From assembly GCF_988242995.1 (NCBI RefSeq), contig NZ_OZ547043.1: 64,000 nt of DNA; one strand, given 5' to 3'. The translations under genes were made by a program, and so were the position numbers. Below the pieces are notes generated by a model. It did not search any database and was not told where the DNA came from. It saw only the letters and a list, made by a program, of their open reading frames with translations. This document shows positions 27,406-54,376 of the stretch, one piece after another. Within the stretch, counting starts at the first letter, position 1. Each line of letters starts with the position of its first letter.

Positions 27406-28338
27406 TTAATTCTCCCGATGCAGTAAATCCTGATAGATCCCCGTTAATATGCCATTTGGCGAAAATTGTTTTTTAATCCACTGCGTCACCTGACCCGTAG
27501 CAGAATGCTGAGTTGCGAGTAACATGCGTGAATCCTGGCGCGGATTATGGATTTGTCGGGTAACCAGCAGGGATTGCGCCATCGCCTCACGGACCATGTA
27601 ATCCGGCAAAAAACCAATCCCTTCACCTAAAATCTGGCACTGACATTTGGTGTTGAAATCTGGCACCAGAATCGACTCCTGCCCATGCAGCAACCAGCCC
27701 ACTTTTTTATTAATCGTATGCGCGGTGTCCTCCACCATGATATTAGGATAGAGACGCAGTTGGCTTTCGGCGATGGGTTCCGGCACAAAGGCTAATGGGT
27801 GATCCGGGGTGATAGCAAAAGCCCAGCGAATTGCGCCAATCTCCGTGTAATCAATGCCGCCGCCGTCCAGCAGTGTGTCGGGCGCGCCGATAGCAATATT
27901 CGCCTGATTATTAATAATCGCATCCCAGACGCCGTTATACACTTCGGTCGTCACGGTAATCTGGCAGGTTGGAAACTGCTTTTTCAGTACCTGTAATAAG
28001 CGTGCGGTGTGTTTGGGCGTATAAAGCAGTTGGTTAATACAAATGCGCACCCGTGCTTCTATACCCTGCGAAATAGTATCGATGCTGCGTTTGATGGCGT
28101 GAAAATCATTCAGCAGGTCGGTAGCTTTGCGGAAAAAATAACGCCCGGACTCCGTTAACTCAATGCTGCGGGTACTGCGAGTGAACAGCACCACATCCAG
28201 CCCTGTTTCCATTCGCTTGATGGTGTAGCTAATGGCGGAAGTGGTTAAACCCAACTCTTCTGCGGCTTTACTGAAACTGCCAAAACGCGCAGCGGTAGTA
28301 AATGCCAACAGATTCTCTTCGGTAAAAATTGAGTTCAT
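27406..28338 (-). CDS. yahB: LysR-family transcriptional regulator
   Basis: 310 aa; HTH (LLAFTTAARFGSFSKAAEELGLTTSAISYTIKRME). Confidence 0.8.
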   Translation of the reverse strand: MNSIFTEENLLAFTTAARFGSFSKAAEELGLTTSAISYTIKRMETGLDVVLFTRSTRSIELTESGRYFFRKATDLLNDFHAIKRSIDTISQGIEARVRICINQLLYTPKHTARLLQVLKKQFPTCQITVTTEVYNGVWDAIINNQANIAIGAPDTLLDGGGIDYTEIGAIRWAFAITPDHPLAFVPEPIAESQLRLYPNIMVEDTAHTINKKVGWLLHGQESILVPDFNTKCQCQILGEGIGFLPDYMVREAMAQSLLVTRQIHNPRQDSRMLLATQHSATGQVTQWIKKQFSPNGILTGIYQDLLHREN

Positions 28339-28429: not shown

Positions 28430-28927
28430 TTAATACCCGTCGCGTTTAGTCGTCGCTTCGCTTAATTTTTGTCCGCCATATTCTGAAATTATCCCCACGC
28501 AGTTACCCGCCAGAAAACCCAGTAATGTCACCGTCCAGTTCATCCCGCTGGCAAAAAATAGCGTCATGCCGAGAAAGCCTCCGGGAATAAAAGACAGTAA
28601 ACCGAAACGTCCTTGCCAGACCACCACCGCCGAGAAGGGTACAGTCATAATCACGCTCGCCCAGAACGTGGACAATCCACTCACCGAGGCCAGCCAACCG
28701 GCAGCCAGCGCGGCGAAAAACGCCCACACCATCCCGGAATAATTAACCGCCAGGCTTCTGATAAACCCCGATTTACCGCCGCCTGCGGCATAAAAACTGC
28801 AAAAGGCGACGAAGCCAATAGTTCCTAATAATTCCCATCCCTGAGAGAGCCCGACATGTGAAGACACTAACTGCCAAAGCCCTGCACAAATACCGACGGT
28901 GACACCCGTTGCCGTGAGTCCGTTCAT
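28430..28927 (-). CDS. yahC: small inner-membrane protein
   Basis: 165 aa, four to five hydrophobic helices. Confidence 0.7.
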   Translation of the reverse strand: MNGLTATGVTVGICAGLWQLVSSHVGLSQGWELLGTIGFVAFCSFYAAGGGKSGFIRSLAVNYSGMVWAFFAALAAGWLASVSGLSTFWASVIMTVPFSAVVVWQGRFGLLSFIPGGFLGMTLFFASGMNWTVTLLGFLAGNCVGIISEYGGQKLSEATTKRDGY

Positions 28928-29184: not shown

Positions 29185-29790
29185 ATGACTATAAAAAATC
29201 TACCTGCCGACTATTTATTGGCTGCGCAACAGGGTGATATCGATAAAGTAAAAACCTGCCTTGCGCTGGGTGTCGATATTAATACCTGCGATCGTCAGGG
29301 GAAAACGGCAATTACGCTGGCAAGTTTATATCAGCAATATGCTTGCGTTCAGGCATTAATTGATGCCGGAGCAGATATTAATAAGCAAGATCAAATATGT
29401 TCAAATCCTTTTTTAATTAGCTGCCTGACCGGCGATTTAACCCTGTTACGGATTATTTTACCGGCTAAACCTGATCTTAATTGCGTCACCCGTTTTGGCG
29501 GTGTCGGCCTGACGCCTGCCTGTGAAAAAGGCCATTTAAGTATTGTAAAAGAGCTTTTGGCGCATACGGAGATTAACGTTAACCAGACCAACCATGTTGG
29601 CTGGACGCCGCTACTGGAAGCAATCGTGCTTAATGATGGCGGGATTAAACAGCAGGCGATTGTCCAGTTATTGCTGGAACACGGTGCCAGCCCGCACATG
29701 ACGGATAAATATGGCAAAACGCCGCTGGAACTGGCGCGGGAACGAGGCTTTGAAGAGATTGCTCAGTTGCTGATTGCGGCAGGTGCATAA
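29185..29790 (+). CDS. yahD: ankyrin-repeat protein
   Basis: 201 aa; repeated ankyrin signatures (GKTAITLASLYQQYACVQALIDAGADIN, GWTPLLEAIVLN...VQLLLEHGASPH, GKTPLELARERGFEEIAQLLIAAGA). Confidence 0.8.
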   Translation: MTIKNLPADYLLAAQQGDIDKVKTCLALGVDINTCDRQGKTAITLASLYQQYACVQALIDAGADINKQDQICSNPFLISCLTGDLTLLRIILPAKPDLNCVTRFGGVGLTPACEKGHLSIVKELLAHTEINVNQTNHVGWTPLLEAIVLNDGGIKQQAIVQLLLEHGASPHMTDKYGKTPLELARERGFEEIAQLLIAAGA

Positions 29791-29829: not shown

Positions 29830-30693
29830 GTGTGGGCGCTAACTGCGGATGCTGATTTTCTGGCGCAGCGGGGGCAAGGACAGGTTGAACAGGTCTTTGC
29901 CAGAGCGGTAAATATCGCACTTCCGGCCCGCCAGCAGTTGCTGACGCTGCTTTGTGAAGAGTACGACAATGCGCCAAACAGTTGTCGGTTGGCACTCACT
30001 CACTTTGATGGTCTGTTCCGGCATGGTGATAAGGTTCAGTTTGACGATCAAGGCATTACGGTTGGTCAACATCTTCATATAGAGATGAGTCATTGCCTGC
30101 GTTGGCTGTCCCCAACCTTGCAAATGACCGCTGTGAATTTTCACCTTATTGCCTGGCAACAGTGGCACGACATTATTCATCAGCACCTGGGGGAAAATGA
30201 AACCCTGTTTAATTATCGCGGCGATAATCCGTTTTATCAGGCGTTAAATAAAGAATTACATATTAAACGACGGGCAGTTATTCAGGAAGTAAACGATAAA
30301 CAAAATATCGCCTTAGCGGTCGCCAGTATGATGGGGTTAGGGATTGGCCTTACGCCATCAGCCGATGATTATTTAACAGGTCTGGCGCTTATTTTATTTA
30401 TTTCCGGACATCCGGCGGAAAAATACAAAGAGGAATTTTATATCGGTCTGCAACGCGGCAGAAATAATACCACGTTATTAAGTGCCATAACGCTGGAAGC
30501 CGCATTACAACAACGCTGCCGGGAAAATATTCATCATTTTATTCACGATATTATTTATGGTGTCCCTGGGAATTCAACCCAGGCAATAGAAAAAATTAAA
30601 CATATTGGCTCCAGTTCCGGCTGCGACATGCTGTATGGCATGGCCGATGGTTGTGCGCTGAGCCAAACCTACGGAGGGAATTATGTCAGTTAA
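29830..30693 (+). CDS. yahE: DUF2877-type protein (YlbF/AllH-like)
   Basis: 287-aa ORF; 3' end overlaps yahF start by 11 nt. Confidence 0.7.
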   Translation: MWALTADADFLAQRGQGQVEQVFARAVNIALPARQQLLTLLCEEYDNAPNSCRLALTHFDGLFRHGDKVQFDDQGITVGQHLHIEMSHCLRWLSPTLQMTAVNFHLIAWQQWHDIIHQHLGENETLFNYRGDNPFYQALNKELHIKRRAVIQEVNDKQNIALAVASMMGLGIGLTPSADDYLTGLALILFISGHPAEKYKEEFYIGLQRGRNNTTLLSAITLEAALQQRCRENIHHFIHDIIYGVPGNSTQAIEKIKHIGSSSGCDMLYGMADGCALSQTYGGNYVS

Positions 30694-32230
30694 AATAGTC
30701 ATTAAACCGAATACCTATTTTGATTCTGTCTCGCTGATGTCTATCTCCACGCGTGCAAATAAACTCGACGGCGTCGAGCAGGCATTTGTGGCGATGGCGA
30801 CCGAAATGAACAAAGGCGTGCTGAAGAATTTAGGACTGCTGACGCCGGAACTGGAGCAGGCGAAAAACGGTGACCTGATGATTGTCATCAATGGTAAATC
30901 GGGTGCGGACAACGAGCAGTTGCTGGTGGAGATTGAAGAACTGTTCAACACCAAAGCTCAAACTGGTTCACATGAAGCACGCTATGCCACTATTGCCAGC
31001 GCCAAAAAGCATATCCCGGAAAGTAACCTGGCGGTGATTTCGGTCAACGGTCTGTTTGCCGCTCGCGAAGCGCGTCAGGCGCTGCAAAACGATCTTAACG
31101 TGATGCTGTTTTCCGATAACGTCTCAGTTGAAGATGAACTGGCGCTCAAACAGTTGGCCCACGAAAAAGGGCTGCTGATGATGGGGCCAGACTGCGGTAC
31201 GGCGATTATCAACGGCGCGGCGCTCTGCTTTGGTAACGCCGTGCGTCGCGGCAACATCGGCATTGTTGGCGCATCCGGCACCGGTAGCCAGGAACTGAGC
31301 GTCCGCATTCATGAATTTGGCGGCGGCGTTTCGCAACTGATCGGCACCGGCGGGCGCGACCTGAGCGAGAAAATCGGCGGCCTGATGATGCTCGACGCCA
31401 TCGGGATGCTGGAAAACGATCCGCAAACTGAAATTATTGTGCTTATCTCCAAACCGCCTGCGCCTGCGGTGGCCCGCAAAGTGCTGGAACGCGCACGTGC
31501 CTGCCGCAAGCCGGTGGTGGTCTGCTTCCTCGGTCGTGGCGAAACGCCAGTGGATGAGCAGGGGCTACAGTTTGCTCGCGGCAGCAAAGAAGCGGCGCTG
31601 AAAGCGGTAATGCTCTCCGGCGTGAAACAGGAACATCTCGATCTGCATACCCTGAACCAGCCATTGATTGCTGACGTGCGCGCTCGCCTGAAGCCACAAC
31701 AGAAATACATTCGTGGCCTGTTCTGCGGCGGTACGCTGTGTGACGAAACCATGTTCGCGGTGATGGAAAAACACGGCGATGTCTACAGCAACATCCAGCC
31801 CGATCCTGAATTCCGCCTGAAAGATATCAACCGCAGCATCAAACACACCTTCCTCGACTTTGGTGATGACGACTTCACCAACGGCAAGCCGCATCCAATG
31901 ATTGACCCCACCAACCGCATCAGCCGGTTGATCGAAGAAGCGCGCGATCCAGAAGTGGCGGTGATCGTGATGGATTTTGTGCTCGGATTTGGATCGCATG
32001 AAGATCCGGTCGGTTCCACCATTGAGGCGATCAAAGAGGCGAAAGCGATCGCCGCTGCCGAAGGACGTGAGTTGATCATTCTCGCCTATGTGCTGGGTAC
32101 CGATCTTGATACGCCATCATTAGAACAACAAAGCCAGATGTTGCTTGATGCCGGAGTGATTCTGGCCAGCAGCAGCACCAATACCGGATTGCTGGCGCGT
32201 GAATTTATCTGCAAAGGGGAGGAAGCCTGA
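30683..32230 (+). CDS. yahF: FdrA-like protein (CoA-ligase/succinyl-CoA-synthetase alpha-like fold)
   Basis: 515-aa ORF; glycine-rich Rossmann-like stretches (GIVGASGTGSQE). Confidence 0.8.
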   Translation: MSVKIVIKPNTYFDSVSLMSISTRANKLDGVEQAFVAMATEMNKGVLKNLGLLTPELEQAKNGDLMIVINGKSGADNEQLLVEIEELFNTKAQTGSHEARYATIASAKKHIPESNLAVISVNGLFAAREARQALQNDLNVMLFSDNVSVEDELALKQLAHEKGLLMMGPDCGTAIINGAALCFGNAVRRGNIGIVGASGTGSQELSVRIHEFGGGVSQLIGTGGRDLSEKIGGLMMLDAIGMLENDPQTEIIVLISKPPAPAVARKVLERARACRKPVVVCFLGRGETPVDEQGLQFARGSKEAALKAVMLSGVKQEHLDLHTLNQPLIADVRARLKPQQKYIRGLFCGGTLCDETMFAVMEKHGDVYSNIQPDPEFRLKDINRSIKHTFLDFGDDDFTNGKPHPMIDPTNRISRLIEEARDPEVAVIVMDFVLGFGSHEDPVGSTIEAIKEAKAIAAAEGRELIILAYVLGTDLDTPSLEQQSQMLLDAGVILASSSTNTGLLAREFICKGEEA

Positions 32231-33648
32231 TGAGCCCGTCACTGTTTAGCCAACCGTTGAACGTTATTAACGTCGGTATCGCCATGTTTAGCGATGATCT
32301 GAAAAAGCAGCATGTAGAAGTGACCCAACTCGACTGGACGCCGCCGGGGCAGGGCAATATGCAGGTGGTGCAGGCGCTGGATAACATTGCCGATTCGCCG
32401 CTGGCAGACAAAATCGCCGCCGCTAACCAGCAGGCGCTGGAGCGCATTATCCAGTCGCATCCGGTGCTGATTGGTTTTGATCAGGCGATAAACGTGGTGC
32501 CGGGCATGACGCCGAAAACCATTCTTCACGCCGGGCCGCCGATCACCTGGGAAAAAATGTGCGGCGCGATGAAAGGCGCGGTCACCGGGGCGCTGGTGTT
32601 CGAAGGGCTGGCGAAAGATCTCGACGAGGCGGCTGAACTGGCGGCCTCCGGGGAGATCTCCTTCTCGCCGTGCCACGAACATGACTGCGTGGGATCGATG
32701 GCGGGTGTTACCTCGGCCTCGATGTTTATGCACATCGTAAAAAACAAAACCTACGGCAACATCGCTTACACCAATATGAGTGAGCAGATGGCGAAGATTT
32801 TGCGTATGGGCGCTAACGACCAGAGCGTGATTGACCGCCTCAACTGGATGCGCGATGTGCAGGGGCCAATGCTGCGCGACGCGATGAAAATTATCGGCGA
32901 AATCGATCTGCGCTTAATGCTGGCGCAAGCGCTGCATATGGGCGATGAATGCCATAACCGCAATAACGCCGGGACGACGCTGCTGATTCAGGCGCTGACG
33001 CCGGGGATTATTCAGGCGGGTTATTCCGTCGAGCAACAGCGCGAAGTGTTTGAGTTTGTCGCCAGCAGCGACTACTTCTCCGGCCCGACGTGGATGGCGA
33101 TGTGTAAAGCGGCGATGGATGCGGCGCACGGCATCGAATACAGCACCGTGGTCACCACCATGGCGCGTAACGGCGTCGAGTTCGGCCTGCGGGTCAGCGG
33201 CCTGCCGGGGCAATGGTTTACCGGCCCGGCGCAGCAGGTGATCGGCCCGATGTTTGCCGGTTATAAGCCGGAAGATTCGGGGCTGGATATCGGCGACAGC
33301 GCCATCACTGAAACCTACGGCATTGGCGGATTTGCCATGGCGACCGCGCCTGCTATCGTCGCGCTGGTGGGCGGTACGGTGGAAGAGGCTATCGATTTCT
33401 CCCGCCAGATGCGTGAAATCACTCTCGGTGAAAACCCCAACGTCACCATTCCGCTGCTCGGTTTTATGGGCGTGCCGTCGGCAATCGACATCACCCGCGT
33501 GGGCAGCAGCGGCATTCTGCCGGTGATCAACACCGCCATCGCCCATAAAGATGCGGGCGTCGGCATGATTGGTGCGGGCATTGTGCATCCACCATTCGCC
33601 TGCTTCGAGAAAGCCATTCTCGGCTGGTGCGAACGTTACGGCGTCTGA
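32230..33648 (+). CDS. yahG: DUF1116-type protein (YlbE/AllG-like)
   Basis: 472-aa ORF; ATG overlaps yahF TGA in a TGATG junction. Confidence 0.8.
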   Translation: MSPSLFSQPLNVINVGIAMFSDDLKKQHVEVTQLDWTPPGQGNMQVVQALDNIADSPLADKIAAANQQALERIIQSHPVLIGFDQAINVVPGMTPKTILHAGPPITWEKMCGAMKGAVTGALVFEGLAKDLDEAAELAASGEISFSPCHEHDCVGSMAGVTSASMFMHIVKNKTYGNIAYTNMSEQMAKILRMGANDQSVIDRLNWMRDVQGPMLRDAMKIIGEIDLRLMLAQALHMGDECHNRNNAGTTLLIQALTPGIIQAGYSVEQQREVFEFVASSDYFSGPTWMAMCKAAMDAAHGIEYSTVVTTMARNGVEFGLRVSGLPGQWFTGPAQQVIGPMFAGYKPEDSGLDIGDSAITETYGIGGFAMATAPAIVALVGGTVEEAIDFSRQMREITLGENPNVTIPLLGFMGVPSAIDITRVGSSGILPVINTAIAHKDAGVGMIGAGIVHPPFACFEKAILGWCERYGV

Positions 33649-33742
33649 CCTGCAAACGCACCTTACGATCCCTTCTCCCTTCTGGGGAGAGGGGCAACCT
33701 CACTCTCATAACCCCATCACCCACTGTAGCGGACATAACAAC

Positions 33743-34693
33743 ATGAAAGAACTTGTGGTCGTTGCCATTGGTGGCAACAGCATTATCAAAGATAACGCCA
33801 GCCAGTCGATTGAGCATCAGGCGGAGGCGGTGAAAGCCGTCGCCGATACGGTGCTGGAAATGCTGGCTTCCGATTACGACATTGTGCTGACCCACGGCAA
33901 CGGACCGCAGGTCGGTTTGGATTTACGCCGCGCGGAGATTGCCCACGAGCGCGAAGGGCTGCCCTTAACGCCGCTGGCGAACTGTGTGGCGGATACGCAA
34001 GGCGGCATTGGCTACTTGATCCAACAGGCGCTGAATAACCGACTGGCGCGTCACGGTGAGAAAAAAGCCGTCACCGTGGTGACTCAGGTGGAAGTGGATA
34101 AAAACGATCCGGGTTTTGCTCATCCCACCAAGCCCATCGGCGCATTCTTCAGTGAAAGCCAGCGTGACGAATTACAAAAGGCAAACCCTGACTGGCGTTT
34201 TGTTGAAGATGCCGGACGGGGCTATCGCCGCGTGGTCGCCTCGCCGGAACCGAAACGTATTGTCGAAGCACCTGCCATTAAGGCGCTGATCCAACAAGGT
34301 TTTGTGGTGATTGGCGCGGGCGGCGGTGGAATTCCGGTGGTGTGCAGTGAAGCGGGGGATTACCAAAGCGTGGACGCGGTTATCGACAAAGATCTCTCTA
34401 CCGCGCTATTGGCCCGTGAAATTCACGCCGACATTCTGGTGATCACCACCGGCGTCGAAAAAGTGTGTATTCACTTTGGCAAGCCGCAGCAGCAGGCGCT
34501 GGATCGGGTGGATATTGCCACCATGACCCGCTATATGCAGGAAGGGCATTTCCCGCCTGGCAGCATGTTGCCAAAAATCATCGCCAGCCTGACGTTCCTG
34601 GAGCAGGGCGGCAAAGAAGTGATTATCACCACGCCGGAATGCCTGCCTGCGGCGCTGCGCGGTGAAACAGGCACACATATTATTAAAACGTAA
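33743..34693 (+). CDS. yahI: carbamate kinase
   Basis: ORF 33569..34693; start set to MKELVVVAIGGNSI (ATG 33743); carbamate/amino-acid kinase signatures (LTHGNGPQVG, GGGGIPV). Confidence 0.85.
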   Translation: MKELVVVAIGGNSIIKDNASQSIEHQAEAVKAVADTVLEMLASDYDIVLTHGNGPQVGLDLRRAEIAHEREGLPLTPLANCVADTQGGIGYLIQQALNNRLARHGEKKAVTVVTQVEVDKNDPGFAHPTKPIGAFFSESQRDELQKANPDWRFVEDAGRGYRRVVASPEPKRIVEAPAIKALIQQGFVVIGAGGGGIPVVCSEAGDYQSVDAVIDKDLSTALLAREIHADILVITTGVEKVCIHFGKPQQQALDRVDIATMTRYMQEGHFPPGSMLPKIIASLTFLEQGGKEVIITTPECLPAALRGETGTHIIKT

Positions 34694-34702
34694 GGACGTA
34701 AG

Positions 34703-36085
34703 ATGAAAAAAAACAATAGCCGCCGTGAGTTTCTGAGCCAGAGCTGTAAGATGGTCACCGCCGCCGCGCTGTTTGGTACCTCTGTGCCGCTCGCCCATGC
34801 GGCAGTCTCTGGCACCCTAAACTGCGACGCGAATAACACCATGAAAATCACTGACCCGCACTACTATCTCGACAACGTGCTGCTGGAAACCGGTTTTGAC
34901 TACGAAAACGGTGTGGCGGTACAGACCCGCACGGCGCACCAGACCGTAGAGATTCAGAACGGCAAAATTGTTGCCCTGCGCGAGAACAAGCAGCATCCGG
35001 ACGCCACGCTGCCGCACTATGACGCTGGCGGTAAGCTGATGCTGCCCACCACCCGCGACATGCATATTCATCTCGACAAAACCTTTTACGGCGGGCCGTG
35101 GCGCTCGCTCAATCGCCCGGCAGGCACCACCATCCAGGACATGATCAAACTCGAGCAGAAAATGCTGCCGGAGCTGCAACCGTACACTCAGGAACGAGCG
35201 GAAAAACTGATCGATTTATTGCAGTCGAAAGGCACTACCATTGCCCGCAGCCACTGCAATATCGAACCGGTTTCCGGCCTGAAAAATCTGCAAAATTTGC
35301 AGGCGGTGCTGGCGCGACGTCAGGCGGGCTTCGAGTGTGAAATTGTCGCCTTCCCGCAGCACGGTTTGCTGCTGTCGAAATCGGAACCCTTAATGCGTGA
35401 AGCGATGCAGGCGGGGGCGCATTACGTCGGCGGTCTGGATCCGACCAGTGTTGATGGCGCGATGGAAAAATCCCTCGATACCATGTTCCAGATTGCGCTG
35501 GACTACGACAAAGGCGTTGATATTCACCTGCACGAAACCACTCCGGCAGGCGTGGCAGCCATCAATTATATGGTTGAAACGGTGGAGAAAACGCCGCAAC
35601 TGAAGGGCAAGCTGACCATCAGCCACGCCTTTGCGCTGGCAACGCTCAATGAGCAACAGGTAGATGAACTGGCGCACCGGATGGCGGCGCAGCAAATTTC
35701 TATCGCCTCGACGGTGCCGATTGGCACGCTGCATATGCCGCTCAAACAGTTGCACGACAAAGGCGTAAAAGTGATGACCGGCACCGACAGCGTTATCGAC
35801 CACTGGTCGCCTTACGGCCTGGGCGACATGCTGGAAAAAGCCAATCTGTACGCGCAGCTCTATATTCGTCCTAACGAACAGAACCTCTCCCGCTCGCTGT
35901 TTTTAGCCACTGGCGATGTATTGCCGCTCAACGAAAAAGGCGAGCGCGTGTGGCCCAAAGCGCAGGATGATGCCAGCTTTGTGCTGGTGGACGCCTCCTG
36001 TTCCGCCGAGGCGGTGGCGCGTATCTCGCCGAGAACGGCGACGTTCCATAAAGGGCAACTGGTGTGGGGGAGTGTGGCAGGTTGA
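34703..36085 (+). CDS. yahJ: amidohydrolase-superfamily deaminase with twin-arginine (Tat) signal peptide
   Basis: 460 aa; N-terminus MKKNNSRREFLSQSCKMVTAAALFGTSVPLAHAA (RR-x-FL plus AxA site); metal-binding HxH (MHIHLDKT). Confidence 0.85.
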   Translation: MKKNNSRREFLSQSCKMVTAAALFGTSVPLAHAAVSGTLNCDANNTMKITDPHYYLDNVLLETGFDYENGVAVQTRTAHQTVEIQNGKIVALRENKQHPDATLPHYDAGGKLMLPTTRDMHIHLDKTFYGGPWRSLNRPAGTTIQDMIKLEQKMLPELQPYTQERAEKLIDLLQSKGTTIARSHCNIEPVSGLKNLQNLQAVLARRQAGFECEIVAFPQHGLLLSKSEPLMREAMQAGAHYVGGLDPTSVDGAMEKSLDTMFQIALDYDKGVDIHLHETTPAGVAAINYMVETVEKTPQLKGKLTISHAFALATLNEQQVDELAHRMAAQQISIASTVPIGTLHMPLKQLHDKGVKVMTGTDSVIDHWSPYGLGDMLEKANLYAQLYIRPNEQNLSRSLFLATGDVLPLNEKGERVWPKAQDDASFVLVDASCSAEAVARISPRTATFHKGQLVWGSVAG

Positions 36086-36379
36086 TACGCATTTGAAACG
36101 CCTGCAATGGTGAATCGTAAGAGATTTAAAGCCCCAGGGAGTGGGGCGGGAATGGTTTGTTAATGAATGATCCTGAACTTTATAATCTCCCGGCATAATT
36201 TCCAGGGGATTATTTGAGAGAAATACACAAAAGTGAGTTTTAACAATATTTATCAAGCCATAAATGTGACCTGCTTCGGATAAAAAAGATTAAAAATAGA
36301 AAAACCAATGATACTCTTGCTGATGGTTATCAACAGTAATTAAGATGTGATTTTTTTCCGTAATCGCGAAAATATTCTC

Positions 36380-36790
36380 ATGACCATAAAAGAAAAAATC
36401 TCACAAAAATATCCCCATGCTTCCTTTTGTACTTTTGGCGATTCAGCAGCGTTGGCCGATCACCTCGCAACGTTGATTGCGACAGGTGTTAAAACAGCTT
36501 CCTGTGGTTCGCTGGCGGGATGTATTGAAGACAACGCATTTCCGATGATTGGTGAGTATAAGATTGTAGAAAATAGCCGTGGTGAGCCTGTCTGTGTTAT
36601 CAGAGTGATTGGCCTGCATTTACTGCGCTTTTCTGATGTCACCGCGGAGCTTGCCCGTAAGGAAGGTGAAGGTGACCTCAGTCTTGAATATTGGCGTAAT
36701 GAACACCGTCGTTTTTTCCAGGCAGAAGGATGCTATTCACCCGAAATGGACGTTATCTTTGAAGAATATGCCCTTATTGACGTTGTGTAG
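36380..36790 (+). CDS. ASCH-domain (PUA-like) protein
   Basis: ORF 36347..36790; start set to MTIKEK; FGDSAALADHLATLIATGVKTASCGS resembles ASCH N-terminal signature. Domain call from motif recall only. Confidence 0.55.
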   Translation: MTIKEKISQKYPHASFCTFGDSAALADHLATLIATGVKTASCGSLAGCIEDNAFPMIGEYKIVENSRGEPVCVIRVIGLHLLRFSDVTAELARKEGEGDLSLEYWRNEHRRFFQAEGCYSPEMDVIFEEYALIDVV

Positions 36791-37040
36791 ATAACTATTT
36801 TTCTACGCGAAATAAGCTCACAAACATAAAGTATCGCTAATTTTGTTTATTTTGCTGTTTTTTACGTGATGATTGTCACACTTATTGTTACTGCCCGTTT
36901 TGTCCATATTTATAACCAAATTTTTAATAGCTGCCTGAAATAGGGCTGTTTATTCTGCATAAAAATATTCGAAAATTCTTATTCTCTCCAGCGCGCTAAT
37001 TTGGGCGAACACTTCCTGACTACCCTGCAATGAGGCTGAA

Positions 37041-38027
37041 ATGATGAATAAACGTTTTGTTATCAATATGGTGTCTTCGCTGTTATTAGGCGCTGCGCTA
37101 ATTTCTGCGCCGCTCCAGGCAGCGGAAAAAGTCGTGGTGAATATCTCTAAAGTCGATGGTATGCCGTGGTTTAATCGCATGGGCGAAGGTGTGGTCGAGG
37201 CGGGTAAAGCCTTTGGTGTTAATGCGTCACAGGTGGGGCCTTCAAGTACTGATGCTCCGCAACAGGTTAAAATCATTGAGGATTTAATCGCCCGTAAGGT
37301 TAATGCAATTACAATTGTGCCAAACGATGCCAACGTGCTGGAACCGGTATTCAAAAAAGCGCGAGATGCCGGAATTGTGGTTCTGACCAACGAATCCCCC
37401 GGTCAGCCAAGTGCTAACTGGGATATCGAAATCATTGATAACGAAAAATTTGCCGCTGAATATGTTGAGCATATGGCGAAACGCATGGGTGGCAAGGGCG
37501 GCTATGTGATTTACGTGGGTAGTTTGACCGTGCCGCAGCATAACTTATGGGCTGACTTGCTGGTGAAATACCAGAAAGAGCATTACCCGGATATGCATGA
37601 AGTTACCCGCCGCATGCCGGTTGCCGAGAGTGTGGATGACTCACGTCGTACCACACTGGACCTCATGAAAACCTATCCTGACTTGAAAGCGGTTGTCTCC
37701 TTTGGTTCAAACGGTCCGATTGGCGCGGGACGTGCAGTGAAAGAGAAACGGGCGAAAAATAAAGTCGCAGTCTATGGCATGATGATCCCTTCACAGGCGG
37801 CATCACTGATTAAAAGTGGTGATATCACCGAAGGGATTACTTACGATCCGGCCTCTGCAGGTTACGCACTCGCGGCCGTCGCCAGCACGTTGCTGAAGGG
37901 TGAAGAGATCAAACCTGGATTAGAAATGGAGAATCTCGGTAAGGCCGACGTAGATATGGATAAGCGAATTATCCGTTTCCATAAGGTATTACTGGTCAAC
38001 AAAGACAATATCGACTCACTTTATTAA
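37041..38027 (+). CDS. periplasmic substrate-binding protein of a CUT2 (ribose/AI-2-type) ABC transporter
   Basis: 328 aa; signal peptide MMNKRFVINMVSSLLLGAALISAPLQAAEK; type-I PBP features. Confidence 0.8.
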   Translation: MMNKRFVINMVSSLLLGAALISAPLQAAEKVVVNISKVDGMPWFNRMGEGVVEAGKAFGVNASQVGPSSTDAPQQVKIIEDLIARKVNAITIVPNDANVLEPVFKKARDAGIVVLTNESPGQPSANWDIEIIDNEKFAAEYVEHMAKRMGGKGGYVIYVGSLTVPQHNLWADLLVKYQKEHYPDMHEVTRRMPVAESVDDSRRTTLDLMKTYPDLKAVVSFGSNGPIGAGRAVKEKRAKNKVAVYGMMIPSQAASLIKSGDITEGITYDPASAGYALAAVASTLLKGEEIKPGLEMENLGKADVDMDKRIIRFHKVLLVNKDNIDSLY

Positions 38028-38075
38028 TCCATTTCTTCGGGGCGAAAGCCCCGATTCTTATTGCCAGGGGATGCT

Positions 38076-39560
38076 ATGGAAACCTTCCTTTCCCTTCGTC
38101 ATATCAACAAAACGTTTCATGCCACGCGAGCGCTGCGCGATGTTTCTCTCGACTTTATGTCGGGTGAGGTGCACTGCCTTGCCGGGCAAAACGGCTGTGG
38201 TAAATCGACGTTGATTAAAATTATGTCCGGTGTTTATCGCCCGGATGAGGGGGCGGAAATTACGCTTGGTGGGAAAAACTGGTCAAAGCTGACACCCGCC
38301 GCTTCGGTGGCGCAGGGGATTCAGGTGATTTATCAGGACCTCTCTTTATTTCCTAACCTGAGTGTCTGGGAGAATATCGCCGTGAATCACTATCACCACG
38401 GTCTGTTTGTTAACCGCCGTCGTCTGCGTGAGGTGGCGCAGGCGGCAATGACCAGTATTAACGTCACATTGCCACTGGATACGCTCGTTTCTGAGCTTTC
38501 AATTGCCCGCTGTCAGCTGGTGGCAATTTGCCGTGCACTGGCGCAGGACGCACGGTTGATCGTGATGGATGAACCAACCGCTTCGCTGACCCATCAGGAA
38601 GTGCAAGGGTTATTACAGGTGGTGCATCAATTGCGGGAACGCGGGATCTGCGTGGTCTTCGTCAGTCATCGTCTGGAAGAAGTGATGGAAGTTTCCGACC
38701 GTATTTCAGTGCTGAAAGATGGTGAGCTGGTCGGGACCTTTCCGGCCGCAGAGATGACCACAAAACAACTCAGTTTTCTGATGACCGGCCAGGAGTTCGA
38801 ATATCAGGTACGAGAGTTGTGGCAGGGAAAATCCAGCACCCCGGTGCTGGAGGTGCGTAATTTAAGTCGTCATGGGGAATATCAAAATATTAACTTGCGG
38901 GTGGAAGCGGGCGAAGTGGTGTCGATTGTTGGCCTGCTTGGTGCGGGGCGCACGGAATTATGTCTGAGTCTGTTTGGTATGACCCGACCGGATGCTGGTG
39001 AGATCCTCATCAACGGTCAGCCGGTTACACTGCATAGTAACCAGGACGCCATCCGCCACGGTATTGGTTATGTTTCGGAAGATCGCATGTCGCGCGGTTT
39101 GGTGATGGCGCAATCTATTGAAGACAACATCATTAGCACTGTTTTTCACAAGGTAAAAGATCGCTTCGGCTTTCTGAGTGAAGCTAAAGTGCGTGACCTG
39201 GTGGACAGGCTAATCAAGGCATTGACCATCAAAGTCTCTGACCCACATCTCCCGGTGAATACGCTTTCCGGGGGTAACGCGCAGCGAGTATCGATCGCCA
39301 AATGGCTGGCGATTGGGCCACGACTGTTGATTCTCGATAGCCCGACAGTCGGTGTTGATATCGCCAACAAAGCAGGAATATACGGCATTATCAGCGATCT
39401 GGCGGCTCATGGCATTGCGGTATTGATGATCTGCGATGAAATTGAAGAAGCGTGGTATCAAAGCCACCGGATTTTGGTAATGCAGAAAGGTCAGATCACC
39501 CATAGCTTCCTGCCTGACAGCAGTTCTCAGGCCAGGATTGCGGAGGTGGTAAATGGCTGA
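38076..39560 (+). CDS. ABC transporter ATPase with duplicated nucleotide-binding domains (RbsA-like)
   Basis: ORF 38061..39560; Walker A GQNGCGKST, signature LSGGNAQRV, Walker B LLILDSPT; start set to METFLSL. Confidence 0.8.
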   Translation: METFLSLRHINKTFHATRALRDVSLDFMSGEVHCLAGQNGCGKSTLIKIMSGVYRPDEGAEITLGGKNWSKLTPAASVAQGIQVIYQDLSLFPNLSVWENIAVNHYHHGLFVNRRRLREVAQAAMTSINVTLPLDTLVSELSIARCQLVAICRALAQDARLIVMDEPTASLTHQEVQGLLQVVHQLRERGICVVFVSHRLEEVMEVSDRISVLKDGELVGTFPAAEMTTKQLSFLMTGQEFEYQVRELWQGKSSTPVLEVRNLSRHGEYQNINLRVEAGEVVSIVGLLGAGRTELCLSLFGMTRPDAGEILINGQPVTLHSNQDAIRHGIGYVSEDRMSRGLVMAQSIEDNIISTVFHKVKDRFGFLSEAKVRDLVDRLIKALTIKVSDPHLPVNTLSGGNAQRVSIAKWLAIGPRLLILDSPTVGVDIANKAGIYGIISDLAAHGIAVLMICDEIEEAWYQSHRILVMQKGQITHSFLPDSSSQARIAEVVNG

Positions 39561-40524
39561 ACTGAAAAAACGTCATGAATTCTGGCTGGCATTACTGATT
39601 GTGGGGCTGTTTGTTGGCCTTGCCTGGCGCAGCGACGAGTTTCTGACATTCGGTAATTTGTACGATCTCGCCAATAACTATGCCATGTTGACTATTCTCG
39701 CCTGTGGTTTGTTTGTGGTGTTAATTTCCGGTGGGATTGATATTTCGTTTCCGGCAATGACCATCATTGCGCAATACGGCATGGTGCTGTTGCTGCAAAA
39801 AATTGGTGGCAACTTTGCTGTCGCGTTTGCACTGGCGGGCGGCATCGGCATTTTACTTGGCTTAATAAACGCCTTACTGGTTAATCGCCTACGGGTGCCG
39901 TCTATCATCATCACCATTTCGACGCTGAATATTTTCTATGGCCTGCTGTTATGGTTGAGTAAAGGTGTGTGGCTGTACGACTTTCCGCCGTGGTTTGAGC
40001 AGGGGGTAATGTTGTTCAAGTACACCGATGCTGACGGCTATGACTATGGCCTTGGTCTGCCGCTGATCGCCATGATTACGGTGGTGCTGCTAACAGCGTT
40101 TATCATGAATTTCACCAGTGTAGGGCGCAAAATTTATGCCCTTGGCGGGAACCGTGAATCAGCCAGTCGCATCGGCTTTAGCGTGCTGAAACTGCAACTT
40201 TTCGTTTACGGCTATATGGGATTGATGTCTGGTGCTGCGGGTGTAGTGCAGTCGTGGACGGTGATGACTGTCGCCCCCGATTCTCTTCTGGGTTATGAGC
40301 TGACAGTACTGGCTGCGGTGGTGCTTGGCGGCACTAGTTTGCTCGGCGGGCGCGGCACGTTAACCGGTACTTTGCTCGGCGTGGTGTTGTTGGCAGTGAT
40401 GCAAAACGGGCTAAATTTATTGGGAGTCTCGTCTTACTGGCAAACATTGATCACCGGCATCATCATCGTTGCCAGCATTAGTGCCACGGCGTGGAGTCAG
40501 CATCAGAACCGGAGTCTGCTATGA
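39553..40524 (+). CDS. ABC transporter permease (RbsC-like)
   Basis: 323-aa polytopic ORF; start overlaps ATPase stop by 8 nt. Confidence 0.8.
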   Translation: MAELKKRHEFWLALLIVGLFVGLAWRSDEFLTFGNLYDLANNYAMLTILACGLFVVLISGGIDISFPAMTIIAQYGMVLLLQKIGGNFAVAFALAGGIGILLGLINALLVNRLRVPSIIITISTLNIFYGLLLWLSKGVWLYDFPPWFEQGVMLFKYTDADGYDYGLGLPLIAMITVVLLTAFIMNFTSVGRKIYALGGNRESASRIGFSVLKLQLFVYGYMGLMSGAAGVVQSWTVMTVAPDSLLGYELTVLAAVVLGGTSLLGGRGTLTGTLLGVVLLAVMQNGLNLLGVSSYWQTLITGIIIVASISATAWSQHQNRSLL

Positions 40525-41477
40525 AAAAATCGTGGCGTAACAACGTTGAGTTTTACTTGATCGGCCTGCTGGTGCTAACTGTTGCAGCCTTCAGCATTAC
40601 TATGCCGGAGATTTTCTGGTCGATAAGTAATTTCCAGTCCGTCGCTTCGCAAATGCCCGTGCTGGGCATTCTGGCGTTGGCTATGGCGGTGACCATGCTT
40701 TGCGGTGGCATTAACTTGTCAATTATTGCCACTGCTAACGCCTGTTCACTGGTAATGGCGTGGGTGGCGACTCAGTATCCACCGGGTATTGCTACGGTTG
40801 TCGCTACGCTGCTGGCGGGCGCTGGCGCGGCGGTGATAATCGGTTTATGTAACGGCGTATTGATTGCTGGTATTCGAGTGTCGCCAATTCTTGCAACGCT
40901 TGGGATGATGACGTTGCTCAAAGGGGTAAATATTCTGGTGACAGGCGGTAGCGCCATTGCCAATTATCCCTCATGGGTGCTGTGGTTGAATCATGCGCAA
41001 TGGTTCGGTATTCCGCTACCGATGTGGTTGTTTGCCGCAGTGGCACTGGGGCTGTGGATATTGCTGGAGAAAACGCCGCTCGGTAAAGCCATTTATCTGA
41101 TTGGTTCTAACGAACGAGCAACACTTTACTCCGGTATTAACACTCGTCGGGTGCTGATATGGGTGTATGTCATTTCCGCCTTACTTTGTGCGGTAGCGGC
41201 ATTTTTGATGATGTCGAAACTCAACTCGGCTAAGGCCTCTTATGGCGAATCGTACTTGCTGGTGTCAATCCTCGCGGCAGTACTCGGCGGGGTTAATCCG
41301 GACGGCGGCAGCGGGCGGATAATTGGTATGGTGCTGGCGCTGTTTCTTCTGCAAATTATTGAAAGCGGCTTCAATATTCTCGGTATAAGCCCCTACCTGA
41401 CGATGGCCTTATGGGGAACGTTGCTGCTCTGTTTCATTCAGGCTCGCGGCATGTTGGGGCTGGATCGGGTGGTTTAA
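40521..41477 (+). CDS. ABC transporter permease (RbsC-like), second copy
   Basis: ORF 40491..41477; start set to MKKSWRNN (ATG 40521) forming an ATGA overlap with the upstream stop. Confidence 0.8.
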   Translation: MKKSWRNNVEFYLIGLLVLTVAAFSITMPEIFWSISNFQSVASQMPVLGILALAMAVTMLCGGINLSIIATANACSLVMAWVATQYPPGIATVVATLLAGAGAAVIIGLCNGVLIAGIRVSPILATLGMMTLLKGVNILVTGGSAIANYPSWVLWLNHAQWFGIPLPMWLFAAVALGLWILLEKTPLGKAIYLIGSNERATLYSGINTRRVLIWVYVISALLCAVAAFLMMSKLNSAKASYGESYLLVSILAAVLGGVNPDGGSGRIIGMVLALFLLQIIESGFNILGISPYLTMALWGTLLLCFIQARGMLGLDRVV

Positions 41478-53116: not shown

Positions 53117-54376
53117 GTGTCGCAAGATAACAACTTTAGCCAGGGGCCAGTCCCGCAGTCGGCGCGGAAAGGGGTATTGGCATTGACGTTCGTCATGCTG
53201 GGATTAACCTTCTTTTCCGCCAGTATGTGGACCGGCGGCACTCTCGGAACCGGTCTTAGCTATCATGATTTCTTCCTCGCAGTTCTCATCGGTAATCTTC
53301 TCCTCGGTATTTACACTTCATTTCTCGGTTACATTGGCGCAAAAACCGGCCTGACCACTCATCTTCTTGCTCGCTTCTCGTTTGGTGTTAAAGGCTCATG
53401 GCTGCCTTCACTGCTACTGGGCGGCACCCAGGTTGGCTGGTTTGGCGTTGGCGTGGCGATGTTTGCCATTCCGGTGGGCAAGGCAACTGGGCTGGATATT
53501 AATTTGCTGATTGCCGTCTCCGGTGTACTGATGACCGTCACCGTCTTCTTTGGTATTTCGGCGCTGACGGTTCTTTCGGTGATTGCAGTTCCGGCTATCG
53601 CCTGCCTGGGCGGTTATTCCGTGTGGTTGGCCGTTAACGGCATGGGCGGCCTGGACGCATTAAAAGCGGTCGTTCCCGCACAACCGTTAGATTTCAATGT
53701 CGCGCTGGCGCTGGTTGTGGGGTCATTTATCAGTGCGGGCACGCTCACCGCTGACTTTGTCCGGTTTGGTCGTAATGCCAAACTGGCGGTGCTGGTGGCG
53801 ATGGTGGCCTTTTTCCTCGGCAACTCGTTGATGTTTATTTTCGGTGCAGCGGGCGCGGCGGCACTGGGGATGGCGGATATCTCTGATGTGATGATTGCTC
53901 AGGGTCTGCTGCTGCCTGCGATTGTGGTGCTGGGGCTGAATATCTGGACCACCAACGATAACGCGCTCTATGCGTCGGGCTTAGGTTTCGCCAACATTAC
54001 CGGGATGTCGAGCAAAACCCTTTCGGTAATCAACGGTATTATCGGTACGGTCTGCGCACTATGGCTGTATAACAATTTTGTCGGCTGGCTGACCTTCCTT
54101 TCGGCAGCTATTCCTCCGGTAGGGGGCGTGATCATCGCTGACTATCTGATGAACCGTCGCCGCTATGAGCACTTTGCGTCCACGCGTATGATGAGTGTCA
54201 ATTGGGTGGCGATTCTGGCGGTCGCCTTGGGGATTGCCGCAGGCCACTGGTTACCGGGAATTGTTCCGGTCAACGCGGTATTAGGTGGCGCGCTGAGCTA
54301 TCTGATCCTTAACCCGATTTTGAATCGTAAAACGACAGCAGCAATGACGCATGTGGAGGCTAACAGTGTCGAATAA
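53117..54376 (+). CDS. codB: cytosine permease (NCS1 family)
   Basis: 419 aa, GTG start after AAGGGGG, polytopic. Confidence 0.9.

What the first reader, a model, noticed from the sequence alone, without database searches (positions are those of the whole stretch)
34703..34810. YahJ amidohydrolase carries a twin-arginine (Tat) export signal
The N-terminus MKKNNSRREFLSQSCKMVTAAALFGTSVPLAHAA has an SRREFL twin-arginine motif, a hydrophobic core and an AxA cleavage site, predicting Tat export of a folded metallo-amidohydrolase to the periplasm. Deaminases are usually cytoplasmic, so its substrate may be processed outside the cell, while the downstream carbamate kinase and YahEFG lack signal peptides.
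Basis: seen in the sequence. Interest (0 to 1): 0.4.

Follow-up and report, generated by a model that had tools for sequence, protein, structure and literature searches.

The report
YahJ's known Tat export signal
The E. coli enzyme YahJ really does begin with a conserved twin-arginine export signal that should send the folded metal enzyme to the periplasm, but this has been in published lists of Tat substrates for about two decades, so the finding is correct and ordinary.

Summary
Window 34703..36085 (+) is yahJ (460 aa). Its N-terminus is MKKNNSRREFLSQSCKMVTAAALFGTSVPLAHA|AVSG, with a good Shine-Dalgarno site and no upstream in-frame start.

The signal is not chance:
- It is the only Tat-like N-terminus among 101 ORFs in the window.
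- Across 93 orthologue sequences, R7, R8, F10, L11, K16 and A33 are 95-100% conserved, while the linker after the cleavage site is hypervariable.
- 78 of 79 species loci keep the twin arginine.
- Arg, Phe and Leu codons change synonymously between genera.

Distant relatives (46% identity or less) are about 400 aa and lack any signal. The Tat signal is therefore an acquired extension on a mostly cytoplasmic AtzC/CodA-like family.

YahJ is listed as a Tat substrate in PMC7549933 and PMC3027627.

One detail is wrong: the carbamate kinase and YahEFG genes lie upstream of yahJ, not downstream.

New context found here:
- Most genera carry a nucleobase-type permease inside the cluster. It is replaced by yahC in Escherichia.
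- The ankyrin protein YahD is YahJ's most persistent neighbour.
- An AlphaFold fusion test gave no confident YahD-YahJ interface.

Novelty: already known. Interest: low.

The parts
34692..34696 (+). Shine-Dalgarno-like AAGGA, 6 nt upstream of the yahJ ATG. It overlaps the yahI stop codon (TAA, 34691..34693).
   Evidence: SD-like AGGA/GGAG/GGAA sites lie about 5-9 nt upstream of the corresponding ATG in five of the six other genera read. The Shewanella locus in that call shows an over-extended gene call whose true start lies downstream.
34703..34750 (+). Signal peptide n-region, M1-K16 (MKKNNSRREFLSQSCK). Net charge is +4.
   Evidence: K16 is 96% conserved. C15 is a rare allele at a position that is G in 78% of orthologues.
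34718..34735 (+). Twin-arginine motif S6-R7-R8-E9-F10-L11. The RR codons are at 34721..34726.
   Evidence: R7 100%, R8 99%, F10 100% and L11 95% in 93 orthologue sequences. 78 of 79 species loci keep RR. Codons vary synonymously between genera.
34751..34792 (+). h-region M17-L30 (MVTAAALFGTSVPL): uncharged and moderately hydrophobic.
   Evidence: Best 12-residue Kyte-Doolittle mean is 1.64. The range for 21 published E. coli Tat signals is 1.39-2.18.
34793..34801 (+). c-region A31-H32-A33, an AxA signal-peptidase I site. The predicted cut is after 34801 (AHA|AVSG).
   Evidence: A33 (-1) is 98% conserved and A31 (-3) 78%. The same cleavage point is used in the published TatP listing.
34802..34858 (+). 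Hypervariable N-terminal linker of the mature protein (A34-P52), probably disordered.
   Evidence: Mean column entropy is 2.66 for residues 34-49, against 0.54 for the catalytic body. pLDDT is low in the AlphaFold model. The NF005312 profile match starts at residue 49.
34859..36085 (+). Amidohydrolase catalytic domain (H53-G460) plus the stop codon. Metal and catalytic residues are H121 (35063..35065), H123 (35069..35071), H275 (35525..35527), E278 (35534..35536), H308 (35624..35626) and D362 (35786..35788).
   Evidence: Pfam Amidohydro_3 8e-19; NCBIfam NF005312 716 bits against a 447 cut-off. Aligned to the CodA encoded in the same window. PDB AtzC-like 6nbo E 3.9e-44. Foldseek TM 0.89 to 6nbo.
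33743..34693 (+). yahI, a carbamate kinase family gene immediately upstream of yahJ. No RR motif and no signal-peptide-like N-terminus.
   Evidence: NF009007 646 bits. N-terminus MKELVVVAIGGNS is the start of the conserved kinase fold (profile match 1-316 of 316), with no RR and no AxA site. Position.
29830..33648 (+). yahE (29830..30693), yahF (30683..32230) and yahG (32230..33648). They are paralogues of the oxamate carbamoyltransferase subunits AllH, AllF and AllG. No signal peptides.
   Evidence: Pfam AllH 97.7 bits and AllG 297.5 bits. NCBIfam FdrA 490.9 bits. AllFGH function from PMC11326118. N-termini.
29185..29790 (+). yahD, an ankyrin-repeat protein and first gene of the yahDEFGIJ unit. 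It is the most persistent neighbour of yahJ across species. No signal peptide.
   Evidence: The name 'operon yahDEFGIJ' is used in PMC4765031.
27406..28927 (-). Divergent yahB (LysR regulator, 27406..28338) and yahC (DUF1097 membrane protein, 28430..28927).
   Evidence: yahB accompanies yahD/yahJ in nearly all loci. yahC is present only where the cluster lacks the permease gene.

Best explanation
YahJ is made as a 460-aa precursor from the ATG at 34703. Its first 33 residues are a twin-arginine (Tat) signal peptide.

Proposed sequence of events:
1. The AtzC/CodA-like (beta/alpha)8 amidohydrolase domain folds in the cytoplasm. It binds its single metal ion at H121, H123, H275 and D362.
2. TatBC recognises S6-R7-R8-E9-F10-L11.
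3. TatA moves the folded protein across the inner membrane, driven by the proton-motive force.
4. Signal peptidase I cuts after A31-H32-A33. This releases a 427-aa periplasmic enzyme with a flexible linker of about 19 residues at its N-terminus.
5. In the periplasm YahJ most likely hydrolyses (deaminates or de-alkylaminates) an N-heterocyclic or amidine compound.
6. The product is taken up by a nucleobase-type permease that most genera encode inside the cluster. In Escherichia the DUF1097 membrane protein YahC may do this instead.
7. The product feeds the cytoplasmic AllFGH-like transcarbamylase YahEFG and the carbamate kinase YahI.

Shown here: the signal's anatomy, its conservation, its translation, the intact active site and the gene context.

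Inferred from established Tat biology: steps 2 to 4.

Speculative: the substrate class and the pathway link in steps 5 to 7.
For: Sequence and start codon.

Not chance: 1 of 101 ORFs passes the filter, against 0.2 expected.

Selection on the motif:
- R7, R8, F10, L11, K16 and A33 are 95-100% conserved, next to a hypervariable linker.
- 78 of 79 species loci, from Escherichia to Microvirga and Labrys, keep RRxF[LI].
- Codon changes in the motif are synonymous.

The signal's length, hydrophobicity and spacing lie inside the ranges of published E. coli Tat signals.

Active site: residues equivalent to CodA H61, H63, H214, E217, H246 and D313 are intact. The modelled fold matches AtzC at TM 0.89.

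Published listings: TatP-predicted Tat substrate with the same cleavage site, and a mild delta-yahJ fitness defect (CI 0.70, p 0.02) in ExPEC (PMC7549933). Also listed in PMC3027627.

Precedent: the Amidohydro_3 protein PA2699 is a Tat-dependent exoprotein of P. aeruginosa (PMC4899797).

Context:
- 47 of 71 judged species loci carry the full cluster.
- 38 of those carry a polytopic membrane protein of about 516 aa, with about ten predicted transmembrane segments, that sources name xanthine or AGZA-family permease.
- YahE/F/G match AllH/AllF/AllG (PMC11326118).
Against: - The curated Tat HMM TIGR01409 scores 14.5 bits, below its 16.7 cut-off. Pfam TAT_signal does not hit.
- The motif is SRREFLS, without the consensus Lys at +5.
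- The c-region has no basic 'Sec-avoidance' residue, and the early mature region has no net positive charge. Sec routing of the signal peptide is therefore not excluded.
- No export experiment could be read here. The reporter-fusion study I recall (Tullman-Ercek et al. 2007, J Biol Chem 282:8309) is not held in the library.
- The pathway link is weak. 15 species loci have Tat-YahJ with none of yahD/E/F/G/I, and 9 have only the ankyrin gene. YahJ's function therefore does not require YahEFGI.
- The substrate is unknown.
Confidence: 0.85

Rival explanations
1. The N-terminus is a real cleavable signal peptide, but YahJ is exported unfolded through Sec (or through both routes) and folds and acquires its metal in the periplasm.
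For: There is no basic residue in the c-region and no net positive charge in the first mature residues. The h-region hydrophobicity of 1.64 is moderate but not extreme. From memory, many E. coli Tat signal peptides route reporter proteins through Sec as well (Tullman-Ercek 2007, not read here).
Against: RR, F10 and L11 are near-invariant in 78 of 79 species. Sec targeting does not require these residues, so their conservation implies selection for TatBC recognition. The h-region is less hydrophobic than the Sec-type signal of the neighbouring periplasmic binding protein (2.28).
Confidence: 0.08
2. The signal is not cleaved. The h-region acts as an N-terminal anchor that holds YahJ on the periplasmic face of the inner membrane after Tat transport. 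This has been reported for organophosphate hydrolase, another amidohydrolase-superfamily Tat substrate (from memory).
For: The h-region is 14 uncharged residues. It is followed by a disordered linker of about 19 residues that could act as a tether.
Against: Small residues at -1 (A33, 98%) and -3 (A31, 78%) are conserved, as expected for signal peptidase I. A 14-residue h-region is short for a stable transmembrane helix.
Confidence: 0.05
3. The RR-containing N-terminus is not translated, or is a chance match. The true start is M17 or M47, and YahJ is cytoplasmic like most of its relatives.
For: In-frame ATGs exist at codons 17 and 47. Distant relatives lack any signal. TIGR01409 scores below its cut-off.
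Against: Residues 6-16 are conserved at the protein level with synonymous codon change. An SD-like site precedes the same ATG in five of the six other genera compared. The region after codon 33 is the most variable part of the protein, so conservation of codons 6-16 cannot be a DNA-level effect. The chance expectation is 0.2 per 101 ORFs before conservation is considered.
Confidence: 0.02

Closest known systems
Published E. coli Tat substrates without redox cofactors (SufI, AmiA, AmiC, YcbK, FhuD and YahJ itself)
   Same: S/T-R-R-x-F/L-L motif, signal of about 30 residues, moderately hydrophobic h-region and an AxA site. YahJ appears in these lists with the signal MKESNSRREFLSQSGKMVTAAALFGTSVPLAHA (PMC7549933; PMC3027627).
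   Different: The window carries a rare allele (E3K, S4N, G15C), found at 99% identity or more in only 5 of 4857 E. coli genomes. All motif residues are unchanged.
AtzC (N-isopropylammelide isopropylaminohydrolase) and CodA (cytosine deaminase), mononuclear amidohydrolases
   Same: Same fold: Foldseek TM 0.85-0.89 to AtzC and 0.74-0.79 to cytosine and 5-methylcytosine deaminases. Sequence E-values are 3.9e-44 to 6nbo and 1e-16 to CodA. The HxH, His, Glu, His and Asp active-site residues are conserved.
   Different: The solved AtzC and CodA chains (about 390-430 aa) align with YahJ only from about residue 80-105 onward, so they offer no counterpart to its N-terminal signal. That they work in the cytoplasm is general knowledge, not checked here. 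YahJ scores far below the cytosine-deaminase equivalog cut-offs, so its substrate is unknown.
PA2699 of Pseudomonas aeruginosa, an Amidohydro_3 (YtcJ-like) protein
   Same: An amidohydrolase-superfamily enzyme shown experimentally to depend on Tat for export (PMC4899797).
   Different: It belongs to a different subfamily and is released to the exoproteome. No relationship beyond the superfamily was tested here.
AllFGH oxamate carbamoyltransferase plus the carbamate kinase of the anaerobic allantoin pathway
   Same: YahE, YahF, YahG and YahI are paralogues of AllH, AllF, AllG and the carbamate kinase (PMC11326118, PMC9843812).
   Different: The all cluster has no Tat-exported amidohydrolase and no ankyrin protein. 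The paper on AllFGH does not mention the yah genes. YahE is missing from 12 of the clusters.

Membership tests
Tat (twin-arginine) signal peptide | Consensus S/T-R-R-x-F-L-K at the boundary of the n- and h-regions | tested here: met
   S6-R7-R8-E9-F10-L11-S12. Only the final K is absent, and K16 follows. RR, F and L are 95-100% conserved.
Tat (twin-arginine) signal peptide | Uncharged, moderately hydrophobic h-region followed by an AxA signal peptidase I site | tested here: met
   M17-L30 has Kyte-Doolittle mean 1.64, inside the 1.39-2.18 range of published E. coli Tat signals. The site is A31-H32-A33, with A33 98% conserved.
Tat (twin-arginine) signal peptide | Score at or above the curated HMM cut-off (TIGR01409 or Pfam PF10518) | tested here: not met
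   TIGR01409 scores 14.5 bits against a cut-off of 16.7 (E 0.034). Pfam gives no hit. These are short models and this is a near miss.
Tat (twin-arginine) signal peptide | Export that depends on tatABC and on the two arginines | not testable with these tools
   Only published predictions could be read. The reporter-fusion paper is not held.
Amidohydrolase superfamily, mononuclear CodA/AtzC type | (beta/alpha)8 barrel with HxH, a third His and an Asp as metal ligands, plus a catalytic Glu and His | tested here: met
   H121, H123, H275, E278, H308 and D362 align with CodA H61, H63, H214, E217, H246 and D313. The model has pLDDT above 90 over the domain and TM 0.89 to 6nbo. NF005312 scores 716 bits against a 447 cut-off.
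Cytosine deaminase (CodA equivalog) | Score above the equivalog cut-off | tested here: not met
   NF005759 scores 69.9 bits against 403. NF006685 scores 82.6 against 483. 'Deaminase' is a family-level label only.
Tat 'hitchhiker' complex (a signal-less partner exported with a Tat-signal subunit), considered for YahD with YahJ | A stable complex between the signal-less partner and the signal-bearing subunit | tested here: inconclusive
   The two genes co-occur in 56 of 71 judged loci, and the Microvirga ankyrin neighbour has its own signal. The AlphaFold fused-chain model has pTM 0.67 with both domains confident. That is about what one domain alone would give, so no confident interface was predicted.

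The most novel reading that the evidence does not exclude
The ankyrin-repeat protein YahD may be a dedicated partner of Tat-exported YahJ. It could leave the cell attached to YahJ as a signal-less 'hitchhiker', or it could act as a cytoplasmic chaperone or inhibitor of the enzyme before export.

On this reading, the yah cluster would be a split pathway. YahJ attacks an N-heterocycle in the periplasm. A nucleobase-type permease (YahC in Escherichia) imports the product. The AllFGH-like YahEFG and the carbamate kinase YahI turn it into carbamoyl phosphate and then ATP.

Evidence that allows this:
- yahD accompanies yahJ in 56 of 71 judged species loci, and it is the only partner in 9 of them.
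- In Microvirga the neighbouring ankyrin protein has its own signal-like N-terminus, while enterobacterial YahD has none.

Evidence that does not support it: the AlphaFold fusion model gave no confident interface.
Probability: 0.15. Interest if true: 0.5.

Novelty: already known. Interest (0 to 1): 0.15.

Why it matters
The finding adds nothing to what is already recorded for E. coli. YahJ has long been counted among the roughly 27 Tat substrates, and its function is still unknown.

The comparative work done here is of modest use:
- The Tat signal is a clade-specific addition to an otherwise cytoplasmic AtzC/CodA-like family.
- The signal is maintained from Escherichia to alpha-proteobacteria.
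- The ancestral-looking cluster contains a nucleobase-type permease, which Escherichia has replaced with yahC.
- The ankyrin protein YahD, rather than YahEFGI, is YahJ's most faithful neighbour.

These points narrow the search for YahJ's substrate to N-heterocycles processed in the periplasm. They also suggest simple experiments on an uncharacterised six-gene cluster (yahDEFGIJ) of the E. coli y-ome.

Tried and rejected
1. Pfam TAT_signal and TIGR01409 on the whole protein and on the 48-aa N-terminus gave no Pfam hit, and TIGR01409 fell just below its cut-off. I treat this as a near miss, outweighed by conservation.

2. I could not retrieve the reporter-fusion paper of Tullman-Ercek et al. 2007 by DOI or PMC id. 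What I say about it is from memory.

3. A full-text search for 'yahj' inside words, paired with 'tat', returned only noise.

4. The lipoprotein reading of the rare Cys15 is rejected. S12-Q13-S14-C15 is not a lipobox, and the Cys lies before the h-region (my reading).

5. Downstream starts at M17 or M47 are rejected on conservation and synonymous codon change.

6. The first AlphaFold run on YahD-linker-preYahJ used 20 paired rows. It gave pLDDT 64.7 and pTM 0.43 and was uninformative.

7. The second AlphaFold run used mature YahJ and 76 rows. Both domains were confident (pLDDT 90.7), but pTM was 0.67, so no confident interface was predicted. The hitchhiker idea is therefore not supported. The test is weak: a monomer model, a fused chain, only 12 paired rows and no PAE output.

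8. The promoter and terminator scans around the cluster found no more sites than shuffled sequence gave.

9. The AllFGH paper does not mention the yah paralogues. Papers that mention YahD contain nothing on its function.

10. Pfam and NCBIfam give no family for the 516-aa membrane protein. Its 'xanthine permease / AGZA family' label comes only from source annotations.
Full report
**What is there.** Window 34703..36085 on the + strand is a 460-codon ORF starting with ATG. It matches yahJ, annotated as 'amidohydrolase family protein', in 5034 of 5426 complete E. coli genomes. The best match is 99.5% identical (strain MEI003), and most are 95-99% identical. The ATG is the first possible start after the upstream stop. 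An AAGGA lies at 34692..34696, 6 nt upstream, overlapping the TAA stop of yahI. RefSeq annotates the same start in MEI003 and in K-12 MG1655.

**Is it more than chance?** I scanned all 101 ORFs of at least 100 aa in the six frames of the window. The filter required an RR motif, an uncharged hydrophobic stretch and a small-x-small site. Only yahJ passed. Composition-preserving shuffles of the N-termini pass at 0.002 per ORF, which is 0.2 expected per 101 ORFs. I also compared the signal with 21 published E. coli Tat signals taken from Table 2 of PMC7549933. The YahJ signal is typical of them:
- Length is 33 residues (mean 32.9).
- Best 12-residue hydrophobicity is 1.64 (mean 1.76, sd 0.21, range 1.39-2.18).
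- There are 25 residues from RR to the cleavage site (range 19-30).

**Comparative evidence.** I aligned 93 distinct full-length orthologue sequences of at least 70% identity, from Enterobacterales, Aeromonas and Shewanella.
- R7 is invariant. R8 is 99% conserved, F10 100%, L11 95%, K16 96%, A33 (-1) 98% and A31 (-3) 78%.
- Mean column entropy is 0.81 for residues 6-16 and 2.66 for the linker (residues 34-49). It is 0.54 for the catalytic body.

This is the pattern of a functional, cleaved signal followed by a disordered tether. It is not the pattern of an untranslated leader.

At the DNA level the Arg, Phe and Leu codons differ synonymously between genera (CGC CGT, CGT CGT, CGT AGA, CGT CGA). 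An SD-like site precedes the corresponding ATG in five of the six other genera read; the Shewanella locus shows an over-extended gene call.

A scan of one genome per species returned 80 loci. Of 79 full-length orthologues (62-98% identity), 78 keep RRxF[LI]. These include Photorhabdus, Wohlfahrtiimonas and the alpha-proteobacteria Labrys and Microvirga. Only Xenorhabdus szentirmaii has RH.

The curated model TIGR01409 scores 14.5 bits against a cut-off of 16.7, and Pfam's TAT_signal does not hit. I treat this as a near miss by very short models.

**The cargo.** Pfam assigns Amidohydro_3 and Amidohydro_1. NCBIfam NF005312 (PRK06846, 'amidohydrolase') scores 716 bits against a 447 cut-off, and the match starts at residue 49, after the signal and most of the variable linker. 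Cytosine-deaminase equivalogs score far below their cut-offs, for example 69.9 against 403 bits, so 'deaminase' is only a family-level label.

The nearest solved structures by sequence are AtzC-type N-isopropylammelide isopropylaminohydrolases (6nbo, E 3.9e-44). Cytosine deaminases follow. The window also encodes CodA at 54351..55649. Aligning YahJ to it places YahJ H121, H123, H275, E278, H308 and D362 on CodA H61, H63, H214, E217, H246 and D313 (the CodA numbering is from my own knowledge). The mononuclear metal site and the catalytic residues are therefore intact.

An AlphaFold model built on a 76-row alignment folds the domain with pLDDT mostly above 90. It superposes on 6nbo with TM 0.89 and on cytosine and 5-methylcytosine deaminases with TM 0.74-0.79. 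The linker (residues 34-52) is low-confidence.

**How unusual is the signal in the family?** An exhaustive HMMER search of 1.84 billion cluster representatives found only 168 clusters at E of 1e-30 or better. Relatives at 46% identity or less are about 390-430 aa. They begin directly at the first strand (YxLxNVRLExGF) with no hydrophobic N-terminus. Tat-like N-termini appear only in the YahJ clade and a few other branches: SRRRFI, SRREFL, SRRALL, and one SRKGFLK.

Tat export of amidohydrolase-superfamily enzymes is not unprecedented. PA2699 (Amidohydro_3) is an experimentally Tat-dependent exoprotein of P. aeruginosa (PMC4899797). From memory, organophosphate hydrolase is another example.

**What is already published.**
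- PMC7549933 lists YahJ among 25 TatP-predicted Tat substrates of an ExPEC strain, with the signal MKESNSRREFLSQSGKMVTAAALFGTSVPLAHA. It reports a small competitive defect for delta-yahJ (CI 0.70, p 0.02).
- PMC3027627 lists b0324 yahJ, 'putative deaminase', as a predicted E. coli Tat substrate that is absent from Salmonella.
- From memory, YahJ's signal peptide was among the 29 tested with reporter fusions by Tullman-Ercek et al. 2007, and UniProt annotates a Tat-type signal. I could not read that paper here.

The finding is therefore already known.

**Corrections to the finding.** The gene order is yahB(-) yahC(-) | yahD yahE yahF yahG yahI yahJ. The carbamate kinase and YahEFG genes are therefore upstream of yahJ, not downstream. 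YahI's hydrophobic N-terminal strand actually scores higher than YahJ's h-region on the hydrophobicity measure alone.

**Context and likely mechanism.** YahE, YahF and YahG match Pfam AllH, NCBIfam FdrA (AllF) and Pfam AllG. YahI is a carbamate kinase. AllFGH is the oxamate carbamoyltransferase of anaerobic allantoin catabolism (PMC11326118).

I searched the 80 species loci with the window's Yah proteins by tblastn. 71 loci had enough flanking sequence to judge:
- 47 carry the full cluster.
- 9 carry only the ankyrin gene next to yahJ. Seven of these also have yahB, and the gap to yahJ is 14-102 nt. In Erwinia rhapontici the two genes overlap by 8 nt.
- 15 carry yahJ with none of these genes.

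In 38 of the full clusters a gene for a membrane protein of about 516 aa sits between yahG and yahI. The protein has about ten predicted transmembrane segments. It has no Pfam or NCBIfam hit. Source databases call it xanthine permease, AGZA-family permease or adenine/guanine/hypoxanthine permease.

The 8 clusters without this gene come from Escherichia, Pseudocitrobacter, Kluyvera, Raoultella and Klebsiella. All 8 have yahC (DUF1097) instead. Among clusters that also have yahB, the counts are 37 permease-only, 8 yahC-only, none with both and none with neither. These loci are phylogenetically related, so few evolutionary events may lie behind the pattern.

The most economical model is a split pathway. 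Periplasmic YahJ hydrolyses an N-heterocyclic or amidine compound. The product is imported, and the cytoplasmic YahEFG and YahI extract carbamoyl phosphate and ATP from it. Only the anatomy supports this model. The many species with yahJ alone show that YahJ does not need YahEFGI.

**The ankyrin partner.** YahD accompanies yahJ in 56 of 71 judged loci. Enterobacterial YahD has no signal peptide. In Microvirga, however, the neighbouring ankyrin protein has a signal-like N-terminus: MRRSLAISILAALGIMGHSMTA in one species and GRRTLANPLVLVGLLAILFLSEGAIAQ in another. It matches Pfam Ank_2 and Ank_4 and shares the YahD signature GWT.L.EA..L.DGG. This raised the idea that YahD acts in the periplasm and, in Enterobacterales, is exported attached to YahJ.

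I tested the idea with AlphaFold on fused chains.
- The first run used 20 paired rows and was too poor to interpret (pLDDT 64.7, pTM 0.43).
- The second run used 12 paired rows plus 64 YahJ-only rows. Both domains folded confidently (pLDDT 90.7), but pTM was 0.67. That is about the value expected if only the 427-residue domain superposes, so no confident interface was predicted.

The idea remains untested rather than refuted, and I give it a low probability.

**The allele in this window.** YahJ here differs from K-12 YahJ at 11 residues. Five of them fall in the first 42 residues: E3K, S4N, G15C, A36S and E42D. None touches the RR motif, F10, L11, K16 or the AxA site. The 141-nt stretch around the signal is at least 99% identical in only 5 of 4857 E. 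coli genomes. Cys15 does not form a lipobox.

**Verdict.** One positional detail is wrong. The finding is already known. Interest is low. The only parts with some novelty are the cluster-level observations (permease versus yahC, and the YahD-YahJ pairing), and these remain hypotheses.

Noticed in passing
L014-L074 (for example L006 4942..6492, L002 7300..8847); window 28430..28927 (yahC) and 33649..33742 (yahG-yahI gap): A gene for a membrane protein of about 516 aa, with about ten predicted transmembrane segments, sits between yahG and yahI in 38 species clusters. Sources name it xanthine or AGZA-family permease. It has no Pfam or NCBIfam hit. Among clusters that also have yahB, it is mutually exclusive with yahC (DUF1097): 37 permease-only, 8 yahC-only, none with both, none with neither. 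In the window this slot is a 94-nt gap, and in K-12 it is 421 nt holding yahH and REP elements.
   Followed up: partly
window 29185..29790 (yahD); L005 9367..10008; L003 9010..9615; L087 8007..8798; L088 3462..4139: The ankyrin gene yahD is yahJ's most persistent neighbour (56 of 71 judged loci). It is the only partner gene in 9 loci and overlaps the yahJ start by 8 nt in Erwinia rhapontici. In Microvirga the ankyrin neighbour carries its own signal-like N-terminus, while enterobacterial YahD has none. An AlphaFold fusion model gave no confident interface (pTM 0.67).
   Followed up: partly
window 34703..34830: The signal-peptide region is a rare allele (K3, N4, C15; also S36 and D42). It is at least 99% identical in only 5 of 4857 E. 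coli genomes, while most genomes are 90-95% identical over this stretch. Position 15 is Gly in 78% of orthologues.
   Followed up: partly
window 36347..41477: Five genes lie between yahJ and yahK: an ASCH-domain protein and a periplasmic-binding-protein-dependent sugar or AI-2-like ABC transporter. K-12 lacks them, and its yahJ-yahK gap is about 380 nt. Strain MEI003 has the same insert.
   Followed up: no
L026, L028, L030, L032-L034, L037, L039, L041, L044, L059, L063: yahE (AllH-like) is missing from 12 otherwise complete clusters (Enterobacter, Lelliottia, Leclercia, Huaxiibacter, Silvania, Aeromonas). All three subunits are reported as necessary for AllFGH activity.
   Followed up: no
L050 (Xenorhabdus szentirmaii) and protein P0124: There are natural variants of the twin arginine. 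One orthologue has NRHEFLS. One relative at 49% identity has SRKGFLK. Either could be a decayed signal or a tolerated variant.
   Followed up: no
proteins P0001-P0003 and P0008 (ENA and NCBI contigs): Some assemblies predict YahI-YahJ fusion proteins of 677-780 aa in which the Tat signal would be internal. These are probably sequencing or assembly errors at the yahI stop codon, which lies 9 nt before the yahJ ATG.
   Followed up: no
window 53117..55649: codB and codA (cytosine permease and the signal-less cytosine deaminase) lie in the same window. CodA is 25% identical to YahJ over 323 residues. It served as the internal reference for the active-site residues.
   Followed up: yes
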